A DNA stretch of 64,000 bases from Candidatus Saccharimonadales bacterium. GTDB lineage: Bacteria > Patescibacteriota > Saccharimonadia > Saccharimonadales > UBA10212. Positions 12,653 through 56,021 of this stretch are shown here, piece by piece. The notes beneath the pieces were generated by a model, which was not told the origin of the DNA, made no database searches, and saw only the letters and a program-made list of their open reading frames with translations. Numbering within the stretch: the first letter of the stretch is position 1; each line of letters begins with the position of its first letter. Made by a program: the position numbers and the translations under genes. The stretch lies in the NCBI GenBank assembly GCA_049521895.1, contig JBEKOJ010000001.1:418717-482716 (forward strand), in the 5' to 3' direction.

Positions 12653-12729
12653 TGCCCCGGTAGCTCAGCTGGATAGAGCAGGAGACTTCTAAGCTCAAGG
12701 CCGCAGGTTCGAATCCTGCCCGGGGTACC
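12653..12729 (+). tRNA. tRNA-Arg (anticodon TCT)
   Basis: Cloverleaf by eye. Loop is CTTCTAA and T-arm is GCAGG-TTCGAAT-CCTGC, with CCA encoded. The anticodon stem has only three Watson-Crick pairs (G27/A43 and A31/G39 are mismatched). Confidence 0.8.
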
Positions 12730-12734
12730 ACAAA

Positions 12735-12760
12735 AATGCCCAGCCTCGCGTTGGGCATTT
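12735..12760 (+). terminator. rho-independent terminator after tRNA-Arg(TCT)
   Basis: ATGCCCA-GCCTCGCGT-TGGGCAT stem-loop followed by TTTTT. Confidence 0.7.
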
Positions 12761-12813
12761 TTGTGGTTCTCTGGTAGATTCGGTTCTGCGGCTCGACAGC
12801 TTTAGCTGGCGAT

Positions 12814-12898
12814 AGCCGCAGGTTCGGTCATCCAGCTCGCCTGCAGGAGCTTGCTTCGAGAACGAGCGCAGATGTGCGCTCACCCTGCCCGGGGTACC
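12814..12898 (+). repeat. second, interrupted copy of the tRNA-Arg(TCT) 3' part (GCCGCAGGTTCG + 57-nt insert + CCTGCCCGGGGTACCA)
   Basis: The 12 nt before and the 16 nt after the insert are identical to tRNA positions 12703-12714 and 12718-12729... in order. The insert (12826-12882) replaces only the last three T-loop bases. Confidence 0.85.
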
Positions 12899-13003
12899 AA
12901 AGTTCCGTGCCTGCCAACCTTAAATACGCCTAGTTAGCATTAGAGATCGAGAAATCACAGACCGGTAGTGGGGTGATTTGGCCTCTTTTGTTAGTATGTA
13001 AGT

Positions 13004-20102: not shown

Positions 20103-20588
20103 TTATGGTTCAACTCCTTCGAAACGAGCTCGCAGCTGCTCAATCAAACCAGCCAACGATTGCGGGTAAGTTATCTCTACCGCTCTTTCATCGGGACTAT
20201 CTGGCACAGGCTTGAGTCCAACGACCATACGGCTATCCGGCAATACACCGCGCACGATATCACTCCATTCCACCACTGTAATTACCCGGCTTTTTTGCAG
20301 TGACTCTTTCAGCTGGTCAGACACCACGCCGGGCTGGCTCAAGCGGTAAAAATCAAAGTGGTGAATCTCCAGACTTTTAGCCTTGTAGATTTTGCTGAGC
20401 GTGAAAGTCGGGCTGGCAACTTTATCATCGCTGCCCAAACCCCGAGCCAGTCCGCGTACAAAGGTCGTTTTGCCGCCGCCCAGATCAGAGCGCAATTCTA
20501 GGAGTATTGGCGGACTCAGTAGTCTGCCCAGCTGCTCGCCTAGCCTCTCGGTATCGGCGGAAGTGGTAGAGCGCAGCTGCCAAATCAT
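20103..20588 (-). CDS. tsaE: tRNA t6A biosynthesis ATPase TsaE
   Basis: Contains the P-loop SDLGGGKTTFVRGLARGLG. I chose the start at the MIWQL Met; the ORF could begin at 20609. Confidence 0.8.
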   Translation of the reverse strand: MIWQLRSTTSADTERLGEQLGRLLSPPILLELRSDLGGGKTTFVRGLARGLGSDDKVASPTFTLSKIYKAKSLEIHHFDFYRLSQPGVVSDQLKESLQKSRVITVVEWSDIVRGVLPDSRMVVGLKPVPDSPDERAVEITYPQSLAGLIEQLRARFEGVEP

Positions 20589-43088: not shown

Positions 43089-43994
43089 TCATCTGTTGCT
43101 AAAGTGTGCTTCTGTAGCACCAACTACCAAGCTTAAGTTCTTGCCGACATCAACCTTAGTGTTTGGTCTGGCAGTTTTTAGCGCAAGATTCAACCGCTCG
43201 ATAGTTTTTTCATCAAACTGATTGTTTCCATTGGCTTTTAACCAAAAAATAATCAGTTCGTTGGCAATTACCGTAGGCATAGTTGCAAATTTACTACGAT
43301 CAACATGATCATTACTAGTAATAGTATGCGATAAGGTCGCAATTATATTGTTTAGCTCTAGTCTATTTTTTGCGACTTTTTCTATATTTTTAACTAATTC
43401 TTGTTTCTGTGAAGCTTTTAGTCTAGGGATAATTTGCAGGCGGATATAGTTGCGCAGATACTTCGAATCCTTGTTGGTGCTATCTTCGTGCCAGCCAAGC
43501 TTGTGGTATTTAGCATACCTGACAATTTTAGTTTTAGGAGTATTAATTAACGGCCTGACAATCCCGGGATTGTCCATTATTGATGTTAGTCCCCGTCGCC
43601 CAGTACCGCGTAAGATGTTAATGAGAGCCGTTTCAATCAGATCATCCTGGTGGTGGGCGGTAATTATTGCTCTGGCTTTATGCCGCTTTCTCAGCGCGTT
43701 TAAAAATGCGTAGCGGGCATTTCTTGCCTTTTCCTCGCTAGCTGCAACGCCGAGTTCACCATGCCCGACCTCAAATTGCAGCCCGTATCTTTTGGCCGCT
43801 CGTTTAACAAGCTTCTCGTCCTTTGAGGCATCACTTCGTATACCGTGGTTGAAATGAGCTACAACTAGCTCAACATCTGGCTTTTTTGATAGCAAATCAA
43901 GCAGAGCCATAGAGTCTACGCCGCCACTGACACCAAGAACGTACTTGCCGGGTTCTATCTGAATATTCATAATCAAACCTCCTCTATTCGGCAT
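43089..43994 (-). CDS. tilS: tRNA(Ile)-lysidine synthase
   Basis: PP-loop LGVSGGVDSMAL. The start could alternatively be the Met at 43970. Confidence 0.85.
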   Translation of the reverse strand: MPNRGGLIMNIQIEPGKYVLGVSGGVDSMALLDLLSKKPDVELVVAHFNHGIRSDASKDEKLVKRAAKRYGLQFEVGHGELGVAASEEKARNARYAFLNALRKRHKARAIITAHHQDDLIETALINILRGTGRRGLTSIMDNPGIVRPLINTPKTKIVRYAKYHKLGWHEDSTNKDSKYLRNYIRLQIIPRLKASQKQELVKNIEKVAKNRLELNNIIATLSHTITSNDHVDRSKFATMPTVIANELIIFWLKANGNNQFDEKTIERLNLALKTARPNTKVDVGKNLSLVVGATEAHFSNR

Positions 43995-44534: not shown

Positions 44535-44611
44535 TGGTAGCAGCGACAGGAATCGAACCTGTGACCTCGGGCTTATGAGTCCCACGCTCTAACCAACTGA
44601 GCTACGCTGCC
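44535..44611 (-). tRNA. tRNA with anticodon CAT (elongator Met or Ile2/lysidine substrate)
   Basis: Cloverleaf by eye with loop CTCATAA and CCA encoded. There is an A31/G39 mismatch at the base of the anticodon stem. tilS lies about 0.5 kb away. Confidence 0.8.
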
Positions 44612-47581: not shown

Positions 47582-47594
47582 AGGACTCGAACCT
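47582..47594 (-). repeat. third, isolated copy of the tRNA-fMet T-arm (AGGTTCGAGTCCT)
   Basis: 13 nt identical to the tRNA T-arm, preceded on the minus strand by ACCCCTGTT (the promoter-module motif). Confidence 0.6.
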
Positions 47595-47670
47595 AATTAA
47601 CAGGGGTGAGTTTTGATGTAAATCAAAAAGAGACTGGTTTTGGAACCAATCTCTATCTGTAATTATCACT

Positions 47671-47774
47671 TGGTAGCGGGGAGAGGACGGCGTCAGGGCT
47701 AACACGCCTGACTATATCCGCTCCTGCGTTACTCGGAATAAATTCCTGCGTGACTTAGTCGCTACACGAACCTC
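47671..47774 (-). repeat. second, interrupted copy of the tRNA-fMet 3' part (GAGGTTCG + 80-nt insert + CCTCTCCCCGCTACCA)
   Basis: The 16-nt 3' end is identical to the tRNA. The T-stem 5' strand is repeated at 47767-47774. The insert spans 47687-47766. Confidence 0.8.
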
Positions 47775-47823
47775 CCGCTCACTACGTTCGCTCAACGAGG
47801 TTCTCGCCCTTCTCCGAACCATG

Positions 47824-47850
47824 AAAAAAGACCCATCAGAAGATGAGTCA
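47824..47850 (-). terminator. rho-independent terminator after tRNA-fMet
   Basis: On the minus strand: GACTCATC-TTCT-GATGGGTC followed by TTTTTT. Confidence 0.7.
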
Positions 47851-47857
47851 TTTTTCA

Positions 47858-47932
47858 TGGTAGCGGGGAGAGGACTCGAACCTCTGACCTCGTGGTTATG
47901 AGCCACGCGAGCTGCCACTGCTCCACCCCGCG
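47858..47932 (-). tRNA. initiator tRNA-fMet (anticodon CAT)
   Basis: 5' CGCGGGGTGGAGCAG as in bacterial initiators. Position 1:72 is a C/U mismatch. CCA is encoded. Confidence 0.85.
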
Positions 47933-55664: not shown

Positions 55665-55740
55665 GGGCCCATAGCTCAGTTGGTAGAGCAGAGGCCTTTT
55701 AAGCCTCGTGTCGCGGGTTCGAGACCCGCTGGGCCCTCCA
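55665..55740 (+). tRNA. tRNA-Lys (anticodon TTT)
   Basis: Cloverleaf by eye. Anticodon arm is GAGGC-CTTTTAA-GCCTC. CCA is encoded. Confidence 0.9.
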
Positions 55741-55748
55741 ATGAAAGT

Positions 55749-55775
55749 GCCCGGCCTTGCGCCGGGTATTTTCAT
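55749..55775 (+). terminator. rho-independent terminator after tRNA-Lys(TTT)
   Basis: CCCGGC-CTTGC-GCCGGG stem-loop followed by TATTTT. Confidence 0.65.
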
Positions 55776-55827
55776 TGGTTGTCTTAGTCGGTTTCGGTTC
55801 CGCGACCAAGACGCAAAGCGGATTGTA

Positions 55828-55916
55828 GTCGCGGGTTCGGTCATCCAGGTCGCGCGCAGTCCGCCTGAAGCGGACGAGCACGGCTGCAGATGTGCGCTGT
55901 CCCGCTGGGCCCTCCA
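55828..55916 (+). repeat. second, interrupted copy of the tRNA-Lys(TTT) 3' part (GTCGCGGGTTCG + 61-nt insert + CCCGCTGGGCCCTCCA)
   Basis: The flanks are identical to the tRNA. The insert (55840-55900) shares GTCATCCAGSTCGC and GCAGATGTGCGCT blocks with the insert at 12826-12882. Confidence 0.85.
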
Positions 55917-56021
55917 ACCATAAGCATTTTGACCTCTATAATTAACAGGCTACAATCTTATATAATTGCACACAACAAGCTAATTATTGACAACAGTTTA
56001 TAATTATGCTTATATGTGTGT

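What the first reader, a model, noticed from the sequence alone, without database searches (positions are those of the whole stretch)
47582..47857. Third case on the other strand: initiator tRNA followed by terminator, interrupted 3'-end copy and a further T-arm fragment
On the minus strand the elements run in this order:
- tRNA-fMet (47932-47858)
- a terminator
- GAGGTTCG (47774-47767), an 80-nt insert and CCTCTCCCCGCTACCA (47686-47671)
- a second terminator-like hairpin
- a promoter-like GTGATAATTAC and ACCCCTGTT motif
- an isolated AGGTTCGAGTCCT (47594-47582)

This insert is unrelated in sequence to the Arg and Lys inserts, but it interrupts the T-loop at the same place. The recurrence at 3 of 14 tRNAs, in both orientations, argues for a systematic process such as repeated site-specific integration and decay, or a family of tRNA-end-mimicking modules. 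It does not look like random duplication.
Basis: partly seen in the sequence, partly recalled or inferred. Interest (0 to 1): 0.6.

Follow-up and report, generated by a model that had tools for sequence, protein, structure and literature searches.

The report
Conserved tRNA-end mimic module family
Behind the initiator tRNA gene sits one copy of a previously undescribed, conserved, folded non-coding module of Saccharibacteria. It contains both an antisense and an interrupted sense copy of the tRNA's own 3' end, so it is not a decaying integration scar.

Summary
The described sequence is real: tRNA-fMet, a terminator hairpin, GAGGTTCG, a 78-nt insert, an exact 18-nt copy of the tRNA 3' end, a second terminator and a 13-nt T-arm fragment.

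Three points in the finding are wrong.
- The insert is a divergent homologue of the Arg and Lys inserts, not unrelated to them.
- ARAGORN finds 12 tRNAs, not 14.
- The second terminator and the T-arm fragment belong to the ancestral flank, not to the element.

The organism is a Saccharimonadales (TM7) bacterium. I found 16 further related elements, all behind tRNA genes or tRNA 3'-end copies: Arg, Lys, fMet, Met, Asn, Ile and Tyr.

Each full module has the same five parts:
- a hairpin that also pairs the tRNA's NCCA;
- an arm antisense to the tRNA's last ~30 nt;
- a small variable hairpin;
- a sense copy of those ~30 nt;
- a conserved rod hairpin replacing the T-loop from A58.

Covariation and G·U bias show selection on a fold of the tRNA-sense strand. 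Orthologous modules stay 80-98% identical where flanks are unalignable. No Rfam family, phage, plasmid, viral contig or paper matches.

I favour a read-through tRNA-trailer RNA. A non-autonomous site-specific insertion module is the main rival. Function is unknown.

The parts
47858..47932 (-). tRNA-fMet (CAT), initiator-like, with encoded CCA.
   Evidence: ARAGORN and Rfam RF00005 at 61 bits. C1xU72 and A11:U24 were read from the sequence.
47822..47857 (-). T1, a terminator-type hairpin that starts directly after the CCA. The extended stem pairs the tRNA's ACCA (47861-47858) with TGGT (47821-47818).
   Evidence: Inverted repeat 47818-47837 / 47842-47861, 90% complementary. Terminator scan stem 47849-47830 followed by TTTTTT. 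All 13 fully assembled type-1/2 modules have an equivalent hairpin, and the discriminator base covaries: GCCA/TGGC in L012 and L017.
47797..47821 (-). Antisense arm (a-b), TGGTTCGGAGAAGGGCGAGAACCTC. It is an imperfect reverse complement of the tRNA's last 27 nt, and GAACCTC pairs with GAGGTTC.
   Evidence: Inverted repeat 47797-47810 / 47871-47884. Across 15 modules the arm pairs with its own sense copy at 81/90 tRNA-specific positions, against 60.0 +/- 3.5 when partners are permuted (0 of 20000 permutations reach 81).
47775..47796 (-). Connecting segment at the P2b position. In other modules this is a small hairpin of variable sequence.
   Evidence: Sequence. Hairpins at this position in other modules include CAGC-TTTA-GCTG, CGC-AAA-GCG and GTCCG-TGGA-CGGAC.
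47767..47774 (-). Sense copy, left part (c): GAGGTTCG, matching tRNA nt 50-57.
   Evidence: The equivalent copy is 12 nt in the Arg and Lys modules.
47689..47766 (-). Type-2 rod. This 78-nt structured insert replaces A58 of the copied T-loop.
   Evidence: It shares its core with the type-1 rods (A2). Model R1 hits 47755-47725 at 16.9 bits. It is 58/59 identical to L025, with a compensated apical hairpin, GTCAGGCGTGTTAGCCCTGAC versus GTCCGCCCAAGCGGAC.
47671..47688 (-). Sense copy, right part (d): an exact 18-nt direct repeat of the tRNA 3' end, GTCCTCTCCCCGCTACCA.
47629..47654 (-). T2, the ancestral terminator of the tRNA-fMet flank. It is not part of the module.
   Evidence: Terminator scan. 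The same sequence follows the module in L021 and follows the tRNA directly in L014.
47582..47607 (-). Conserved flank motif ACCCCTGTTAATTAGGTTCGAGTCCT, which contains the 13-nt T-arm-like fragment. It is older than the module and shared with L014 and L021.
12731..12899 (+). Sibling type-1 module behind tRNA-Arg(tct). Parts: T1 12731-12763, arm 12764-12792, P2b 12793-12814, c 12815-12826, rod 12827-12883, d 12884-12899.
   Evidence: R1 scores 84.9 bits. Orthologues are present in L010 and L018.
55741..55916 (+). Sibling type-1 module behind tRNA-Lys(ttt). Parts: T1 55741-55775, arm 55776-55806, P2b 55807-55827, c 55828-55839, rod 55840-55900, d 55901-55916.
   Evidence: R1 scores 75.8 bits. A Lys module is present in L016.

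Best explanation
What it is (shown). The fMet feature is the type-2 member of a family of non-coding modules, 169-187 bp in this window. The family has so far been found only in Saccharibacteria or unassigned metagenome contigs. Each module lies as a unit directly after the CCA of a particular tRNA gene, on the tRNA's strand.

Order of parts:
- hairpin T1, whose stem extends to pair the tRNA's NCCA with UGGN;
- an arm antisense to the tRNA's last ~30 nt;
- a small variable hairpin;
- a sense copy of tRNA nt ~46-57;
- a conserved rod-shaped hairpin in place of A58-60;
- a sense copy of nt ~59/61-76, including the CCA.

Selection acts on a fold of the tRNA-sense strand.

How it most likely works (inferred, about 40%).
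1. The module is transcribed when RNA polymerase reads through T1 from the tRNA promoter.
2. The antisense arm zips onto the interrupted sense copy. This gives an imperfect helix of ~30 bp, rich in G·U pairs, that closes the RNA and presents the rod at a three-way junction.
3. The arm could pair equally well with the real tRNA's 3' half. The built-in mimic therefore acts as its preferred partner, leaving the tRNA free to fold.
4. The result is a compact RNA whose 3' end looks like a tRNA end (NCCA).
5. The rod, whose primary sequence is almost invariant, is the working part, probably a binding site for a protein or another RNA.

What the RNA does in the cell is unknown.
For: Family and architecture:
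- Three copies lie in the window.
- Pattern scans found more behind tRNA-Arg, Lys, fMet, Asn, Ile and Tyr. All six genome hits are from Saccharibacteria assemblies.
- Further copies came from synteny look-ups (L025 and L022).

Fold under selection:
- The modelled fold (rod helices plus the copied T-stem) is 95.3% paired against 81.5% in shuffles. Thirteen pairs changed on both sides, 0 of 500 shuffles reach the observed values, and slid controls give 33-46%.
- The arm and sense copy pair at 81/90 positions against 60.0 +/- 3.5 permuted.

Strand:
- G·U outnumbers A·C 14 to 3 in the rod and 30 to 3 in the arm helix. The opposite strand would therefore fold worse.

Purifying selection in place:
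- Arg modules of the window, L010 and L018 align throughout with compensatory changes. The Gly-Arg spacer and the downstream flank do not align.
- The type-2 rod is 58/59 identical between the window and L025, while T1, the connecting segment and the apical hairpin differ.
- In L016 and L021 the sense copy departs from the tRNA in ways that improve pairing with the arm.

Transcription and context:
- Terminator-like hairpins follow the module at fMet and Arg.
- No mobility gene lies next to any of the three modules.
- Nothing matches in viral contigs, phages or plasmids.
Against: - No expression data exist, and no conserved promoter was found.
- A good intrinsic terminator (T1) lies between the tRNA and the module, so an RNA would depend on read-through.
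- The closing helix between the arm's 5' part and the acceptor copy is only weakly specific (-11.4 versus -10.3 kcal/mol). It is lost in L011 and L012, although their rods are intact.
- The module is patchy at the fMet site: present in 6 of 11 lineages, in three types.
- It is bounded by a direct repeat of the tRNA end, which is what an inserted element looks like.
- A purely RNA role gives no proven reason why the copies track each genome's own tRNA variant.
Confidence: 0.4

Rival explanations
1. The module is a non-autonomous, site-specific insertion element. It would enter by recombination within the last 16-21 nt of the tRNA gene, supplying a new tRNA 3' end and the terminator T1. The original 3' end would be displaced to sit behind the rod. 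As a single strand (ssDNA or RNA), the antisense arm paired to the interrupted sense copy would rebuild the duplex 3' end of the target gene, with the rod looped out. That makes a target-like site for a recombinase acting in trans, comparable to the folded attP(+) of CTX phage or an integron attC.
For: - The unit is bounded by a direct repeat of the tRNA 3' end.
- L014 has the native flank directly after the CCA, while the window and L021 have it after the module.
- Three insert types occupy the same position at the same tRNA. L015 combines a type-2-like arm with a type-1 rod.
- There are accretion-like arrays in L014 and L015, and tandem partial repeats of the rod-end/d junction in L025.
- In L015 a free-standing rod lies between elongator tRNA-Met and an uninterrupted 33-nt repeat of its 3' half.
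- The family is multi-copy, with 3 copies in 64 kb.
- The strand-specific G·T bias fits an ssDNA fold equally well.
- T1 has an obvious role as the replacement terminator.
- A relative carries a serine-recombinase element at the same tRNA.
Against: - No recombinase is adjacent.
- At least seven tRNA specificities would need either many recombinases or one that recognises structure.
- No free or phage- or plasmid-borne copy turned up in six searches.
- Copies within one genome are no more alike than orthologues between genomes: L010 versus L014, and window Arg versus Lys. There is thus no sign of recent spread.
- Divergence within one module is uneven (rod 98%, T1 about 70%). That argues for long residence under selection rather than recent transfer.
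- All sampled contigs of the same species have the same layout.
Confidence: 0.3
2. One reading: these are ordinary att-site scars. Prophages or islands integrated repeatedly at the tRNA 3' end and were then deleted, leaving decaying fragments.
For: - A direct repeat of the tRNA 3' end is the classic signature.
- An old T-arm-like relic sits further downstream.
- A recombinase-bearing element occupies the same tRNA in L006 and L007.
Against: - Scars should decay at the neutral rate. These elements are conserved with compensatory changes where flanks are randomised.
- Integration does not explain an antisense arm that covaries with the sense copy.
- It also does not explain the same structured insert at the same T-loop position behind seven kinds of tRNA.
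Confidence: 0.04
3. The module is a guide-type RNA for a nucleic-acid-guided enzyme encoded elsewhere. It carries sequences able to pair with both strands of the tRNA gene's 3' end: the arm with the top strand, and the two sense segments flanking the rod with the bottom strand. This resembles a bridge RNA's target loop. Alternatively the TGG-initiated arm acts as a primer-binding site for the tRNA in a retroelement-like cycle.
For: - Four short tRNA-specific segments change together from one tRNA to another, while the scaffold stays the same.
- Module size (~135-150 nt without T1) and branched fold.
- The arm starts with TGG opposite the CCA.
Against: - No DEDD/IS110-type recombinase, reverse transcriptase or other candidate enzyme lies next to any copy.
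- The sense and antisense segments are complementary to each other, so self-pairing is the simpler reading.
- No second (donor) guide loop has been identified.
Confidence: 0.08
4. The module works at the DNA level. A resident unit that occupies and disrupts the attB site in the tRNA 3' end, and offers interrupted pseudo-sites, would protect the tRNA gene from phage integration.
For: - tRNA 3' ends are used by integrating elements in relatives.
- The copied site is interrupted exactly in the T-loop.
Against: A double-stranded DNA role predicts equal numbers of G·T and A·C departures and no need for covarying hairpins. The observed counts are 14 to 3 and 30 to 3. The near-invariant rod sequence is also unexplained.
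Confidence: 0.05

Closest known systems
tRNA-gene att repeats of integrative elements (prophages, genomic islands, cis-mobilisable CIMEs)
   Same: - The 3' end of a tRNA gene is repeated directly at the far side of an inserted segment.
- The tRNA stays intact.
- Occupancy differs between relatives.
   Different: - The segment is only 169-187 bp and carries no gene.
- No autonomous partner was found.
- The distal repeat is split in the T-loop by a conserved structured insert and is preceded by a covarying antisense copy.
- The whole unit is under purifying selection instead of decaying.
Folded single-strand recombination sites: CTX-phage attP(+) and integron attC (from my own knowledge of these systems)
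   Same: - An imperfect inverted repeat folds, on one strand only, into a stem resembling the duplex target.
- The stem carries unpaired or looped-out material at its centre.
- G·T pairs are tolerated but A·C pairs are not.
   Different: - No XerCD/dif or IntI/attC consensus has been identified, and no cognate recombinase is known.
- The target would be a tRNA gene.
- The looped-out part is a 57-125-nt conserved hairpin.
tRNA-like non-coding RNAs (bacterial YrlA, tmRNA tRNA-like domain, viral 3' TLS, mascRNA)
   Same: They contain T-stem and acceptor-strand sequences and end in NCCA, so they could be handled by tRNA end-processing enzymes.
   Different: - No Rfam model matches.
- The T-loop is destroyed rather than mimicked.
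- The sequence is a literal copy of the neighbouring tRNA's 3' half rather than a general mimic.
- The 5' partner strand is a G·U-rich antisense arm, not an acceptor 5' strand.
Interrupted tRNA genes: group I introns at 35/36 in Patescibacteria tRNAs (PMC13011429) and archaeal non-canonical or split tRNAs
   Same: - Same phylum for the group I introns.
- A structured insert sits inside a tRNA loop sequence.
   Different: - The interrupted copy lacks tRNA nt 1-45, so it cannot yield a tRNA.
- The insert lies in the T-loop, is 57-125 nt long and gives no group I model hit.
- Joining the flanks would not restore a T-loop.
sRNAs derived from tRNA 3' external transcribed spacers (for example E. coli 3'ETS-leuZ; from my own knowledge)
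   Same: They are encoded directly downstream of a tRNA on the same strand and depend on the tRNA's transcription.
   Different: Those RNAs lie upstream of the terminator, carry no copy or antisense of the tRNA, and do not form a multi-copy family attached to many tRNAs.

Membership tests
att-site scar or miniature integrative element at a tRNA gene | A direct repeat of the tRNA 3' end bounds the inserted DNA. | tested here: met
   18 nt exact at fMet. Arg and Lys have 16 nt plus 12 nt. L022 has 21 nt and L015-Met has 33 nt.
att-site scar or miniature integrative element at a tRNA gene | An integrase or other mobility gene lies inside or beside the element, or a related autonomous element shares the same ends. 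| tested here: not met
   The Pfam scan of 40 window ORFs, including all flanking ORFs, found housekeeping or unassigned genes and no mobility domain. Nothing matched in IMG/VR, phages or plasmids.
att-site scar or miniature integrative element at a tRNA gene | The same chromosomal site is found both occupied and empty. | tested here: inconclusive
   Empty-type junction in L014 versus filled junctions in the window and L021. These are different species, all same-species contigs are filled, and the direction of change (gain or loss) is unknown.
att-site scar (decaying remnant) | Neutral decay of the remnant. | tested here: not met
   The modules are conserved with compensatory changes.
Folded single-strand recombination site (CTX attP(+), integron attC) | A strand-specific imperfect hairpin rebuilds a target-like duplex. 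| tested here: met
   The arm pairs with the sense copy at 81/90 positions versus 60 permuted. G·T outnumbers A·C 30 to 3.
Folded single-strand recombination site (CTX attP(+), integron attC) | A cognate recombinase and its consensus boxes, and a free single-stranded or circular form. | not testable with these tools
   Whole genomes and population reads are not available here. No consensus boxes were searched.
tRNA-like ncRNA families in Rfam (YrlA, tmRNA, TLS, mascRNA) | A match to the family covariance model. | tested here: not met
   Only the true tRNAs score. No module hit comes near any family's gathering score.
tRNA-like ncRNA families in Rfam (YrlA, tmRNA, TLS, mascRNA) | A stable transcript exists. 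| not testable with these tools
   No expression data.
tRNA intron (group I, or archaeal bulge-helix-bulge) | It interrupts a complete tRNA gene, and removing it restores a tRNA. | tested here: not met
   The interrupted copy starts at about nt 46. ARAGORN finds no tRNA there. Joining GGTTCG to the downstream flank gives no 7-nt T-loop.
tRNA intron (group I, or archaeal bulge-helix-bulge) | A group I catalytic core. | tested here: not met
   No RF00028 hit in the modules at E<=10. RF00028 is detected elsewhere, in L022, so the test works.
IS110-type bridge RNA | It is encoded next to a DEDD recombinase gene inside an insertion sequence. | tested here: not met
   No such gene lies beside any copy.
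tRNA 3'-trailer (3'ETS) sRNA | It lies directly downstream of a tRNA on the same strand. | tested here: met
   True of every fully assembled copy adjoining a tRNA gene; the displaced L012, L014 and L015-fMet copies follow a tRNA 3'-end copy on the tRNA's strand.

The most novel reading that the evidence does not exclude
The modules could be programmable, nucleic-acid-guided homing units. In this reading one conserved scaffold (T1, small hairpin, rod) carries four short replaceable segments that together match both strands of the 3' end of one tRNA gene. A trans-acting enzyme would use the folded or unfolded module to insert it behind exactly that tRNA. Retargeting from one tRNA to another would need only those segments to change. 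That would make it a gene-free, guide-only mobile element, or the orphan guide of an undiscovered recombinase in a phylum with tiny genomes.
Probability: 0.12. Interest if true: 0.9.

Novelty: categorically new. Interest (0 to 1): 0.72.

Why it matters
Saccharibacteria have genomes under 1 Mb with very little spare DNA. Even so, 3 of the 12 tRNA genes in this window carry a conserved structured appendage built from sense and antisense copies of the tRNA's own 3' half.

Two outcomes are possible, and either would be new.
- If it is an RNA, it is a new class of tRNA-linked RNA. Its nearly invariant rod domain should have a dedicated partner.
- If it is a mobile unit, it is a gene-free element that recognises tRNA genes through a folded mimic or guide of its target.

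In both cases the finding gives a concrete, testable handle on tRNA gene biology in an uncultured-majority phylum, and a covariance model for annotating these regions. It also explains why tRNA-fragment and 'pseudo-tRNA' signals appear behind tRNA genes in these genomes.

Tried and rejected
- Rfam at gathering and E-value thresholds on the window and on related loci: only tRNAs and one unrelated group I intron.
- Four exact or degenerate patterns against IMG/VR, and blastn of a module against phages and plasmids: nothing.
- Phage origin of the window: only tRNA-sized matches. The window is a core chromosome region with FtsH, TilS, Dus, RuvA, DivIC, SHMT, Mur enzymes, RNase Y, ComEC and DnaJ.
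- Reading the insert as an intron: rejected. The copy lacks the tRNA 5' part, there is no group I core, and by eye there is no bulge-helix-bulge with a restorable T-loop.
- Comparison by eye with hammerhead, hairpin-ribozyme and kink-turn consensus motifs: no fit.
- Apparent resemblance of the rod's inner hairpin to the anticodon arm of tRNA-Arg: rejected, because the Lys and other modules do not follow their own tRNAs there.
- GGTTCAACTCC at 20107-20117: a chance match inside a TsaE ORF.
- ORF 47712-47918: it overlaps the tRNA and has no family, so it is spurious.
- A closing helix between the arm's 5' part and the acceptor copy: only weak specificity, so I do not claim it as established.
- RNAalifold on the two type-2 rods: too few sequences to define their fold.
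- Literature searches for a prior description: none found. The nearest paper concerns group I introns at position 35/36.

Full report
**Observation.** On the minus strand, ARAGORN and Rfam place a tRNA-Met(CAT) at 47932-47858. Its sequence shows a C1xU72 mismatch and A11:U24, so it is initiator-like. Directly after the CCA comes a hairpin with a T-run (stem 47849-47830). Its inverted repeat extends to pair the tRNA's ACCA with TGGT. GAGGTTCG lies at 47774-47767. A 78-nt insert follows, then an exact 18-nt copy of the tRNA 3' end at 47688-47671 (about 0.02 matches expected by chance). A second terminator lies at 47654-47629 and AGGTTCGAGTCCT at 47594-47582. A k-mer comparison of every tRNA with its surroundings shows the same split copy behind tRNA-Arg(tct) and tRNA-Lys(ttt), and behind none of the other nine. 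The window has 12 tRNAs, not 14.

**Organism and surroundings.** The neighbours are FtsH, TilS, DUF2127, Dus, RuvA/RuvC, DivIC, SHMT, Mur enzymes, RNase Y, TsaE, ComEC, DnaJ and DnaK. The DivIC protein is 100% identical to one from a Candidatus Saccharimonadales assembly with a contig of about 770 kb. No integrase, transposase or reverse transcriptase domain was found in the 40 window ORFs scanned, which include those flanking all three modules. The window is not phage-like.

**A hidden part: an antisense arm.** After the first hairpin, each of the three elements carries an imperfect reverse complement of the tRNA's last ~30 nt. For Arg this is TGGTTCTCTGGTAGATTCGGTTCTGCGGC, against the perfect complement TGGTACCCCGGGCAGGATTCGAACCTGCGGC. 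Single-sequence folds pair this arm with the downstream sense copy. Each module therefore holds four tRNA-specific segments: anti-acceptor, anti-T-arm, sense nt ~46-57 and sense nt ~59/61-76.

**The family.**
- A two-part pattern taken from the Arg and Lys inserts found six loci in the genome collection. All six are Saccharibacteria assemblies: Arg, Ile, Asn, Tyr and two fMet.
- The same approach found five more in metagenomes: Lys, Asn-like, Arg, fMet and one truncated copy. A sixth hit was a chance match.
- Aligning 13 modules shows that the window's fMet insert shares the core of the others: CGCAG, a hairpin, then GAG-AAC. It also has an extra hairpin.
- A covariance model of the rod (R1) scores 76-94 bits on the standard (type-1) rods. 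It scores 38.7 bits on a free-standing rod behind an elongator tRNA-Met in L015, and 16.9 bits on the window's fMet rod.
- L025 has the same 16.9-bit hit. Its rod is 58/59 identical to the window's, while the first hairpin, the connecting segment and the apical hairpin differ with compensation. DivIC of that genome is only 68% identical. This defines a conserved type 2.
- L022 has the same scaffold with an unrelated ~125-nt insert and a 21-nt repeat, which I call type 3.

**Selection and strand.**
- The modelled fold, which comprises the rod helices plus the copied T-stem, is 95.3% paired against 81.5% in shuffles. Thirteen pairs changed on both sides, 0 of 500 shuffles reach the observed values, and slid controls give 33-46%.
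- The antisense arm pairs with its own sense copy at 81 of 90 tRNA-specific positions. Permuting partners gives 60.0 +/- 3.5, and 0 of 20000 permutations reach 81. Duplex energies agree.
- G·U pairs outnumber A·C by 14 to 3 in the rod and by 30 to 3 in the arm helix. The folded strand is therefore the tRNA-sense strand.
- The Arg modules of the window, L010 and L018 sit in the same Gly-Arg context. They align throughout with compensatory changes, while the Gly-Arg spacer and the downstream flank cannot be aligned.
- This is purifying selection, not decay.

**What belongs to the unit.**
- The sequence after the copied 3' end in the window includes the second terminator, ACCCCTGTTA and the T-arm-like fragment. 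It is homologous to what follows the module in L021 and to what follows the tRNA's CCA directly in L014.
- So the unit runs from just after the tRNA's CCA to the copied CCA, 187 bp in the window.
- Across 11 lineages the fMet site varies:
  - type 2 in the window and L025;
  - type 1 in L021;
  - type 1 displaced behind a degenerate ...GCTACCA in L014 and L015;
  - type 3 in L022;
  - the first hairpin alone in L023 and L028;
  - the first hairpin plus a truncated arm in L024;
  - no module in L008;
  - a serine-recombinase element in L006.
- Sampled contigs of the same species are all alike.

**Interpretation.**
- The data exclude chance and ordinary scars.
- They establish a conserved element, folded on one strand, that is tied to tRNA 3' ends.
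- I favour an RNA made by read-through of the first hairpin (about 40%). The antisense arm and the mimic would close the molecule, and the near-invariant rod would be the working surface. The reasons are the G·U-rich covariation, in-place conservation, terminator-like hairpins after the module at fMet and Arg, and the absence of mobility genes or extrachromosomal copies.
- The main rival (about 30%) is a gene-free site-specific insertion module whose folded strand imitates its duplex target. It explains several things better:
  - the bounding direct repeat;
  - the patchy and mixed types at one site;
  - the accretion arrays;
  - the L015-Met variant;
  - the terminator placed ahead of the module.
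- Both readings leave one point open: why the copies track each genome's own tRNA variant.

**Comparison with known systems.** No Rfam family matches. Searches of phages, plasmids and viral contigs found nothing. The literature search turned up only group I introns at position 35/36 of Patescibacteria tRNAs. The module shares single features with several known systems: att repeats, folded attP/attC sites, tRNA-like RNAs and tRNA-trailer sRNAs. It fails at least one defining feature of those whose defining features could be tested here, and the rest could not be fully tested (see the membership table).

**Verdict.** The feature is real and conserved, and to my knowledge undescribed. Its architecture is well supported. 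Its mechanism is inferred and its function is unknown.

Noticed in passing
window 44535-44611 (-), next to 43089-43994: The 'tRNA-Met' here has a G1:C72 pair and lies beside a TilS-type PP-loop gene. It may be tRNA-Ile2(CAU), read as Ile after lysidine modification, rather than a Met tRNA.
   Followed up: no
window 12654-12730; L010 2446-2522; L018 1038-1114: By my reading, tRNA-Arg(tct) has an anticodon stem with only three Watson-Crick pairs (GGAGA / GCTCA). The same sequence is found in all three genomes.
   Followed up: no
L022 403-601 (-): A group I intron (RF00028, 72 bits) lies near DivIC, with weak tmRNA/tRNA-like signal beside it. This fits the reported abundance of group I introns in Patescibacteria tRNA genes (PMC13011429).
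   Followed up: no
L006 4663-6244; L007 3107-4688: In a relative, a 516-aa large serine recombinase gene (Resolvase plus Recombinase domains) ends inside the 3' part of tRNA-fMet. HTH and small genes follow. This is probably an integrated element at the same tRNA.
   Followed up: partly
L015 5330-5640 (-): Elongator tRNA-Met is followed after 14 nt by a free-standing rod (R1 38.7 bits). Two hairpins and an uninterrupted 33-nt copy of the tRNA 3' half (3 mismatches) come next. This variant layout has no antisense arm and no first terminator.
   Followed up: partly
L025 3880-3960: Three tandem partial copies of the rod-end/3'-copy junction (GCTGTCCTGYCC) follow the type-2 module.
   Followed up: no
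window 47818-47861, 12727-12767, 55737-55779, and all related loci: The hairpin after each tRNA pairs the tRNA's own NCCA with UGGN, and the discriminator base covaries (GCCA/TGGC in L012 and L017). The same type of hairpin follows tRNA-fMet in L023 and L028, which have no module.
   Followed up: partly
window 47582-47607 (-): ACCCCTGTTAATTAGGTTCGAGTCCT, which includes the T-arm-like 13-mer, is conserved in the flank of three divergent genomes (window, L021, L014). It lies about 40-60 nt upstream of the next gene. It may be an old tRNA fragment reused as promoter or leader sequence.
   Followed up: partly
window 55929-55956 (+): A good promoter-like site (TTGACC, 16 nt, TACAAT; 10/12) lies 13 nt after the Lys module, so the downstream gene probably has its own promoter.
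   Followed up: no
window 20107-20117 (+): The T-loop-like GGTTCAACTCC lies inside a TsaE ORF and is a chance match.
   Followed up: yes
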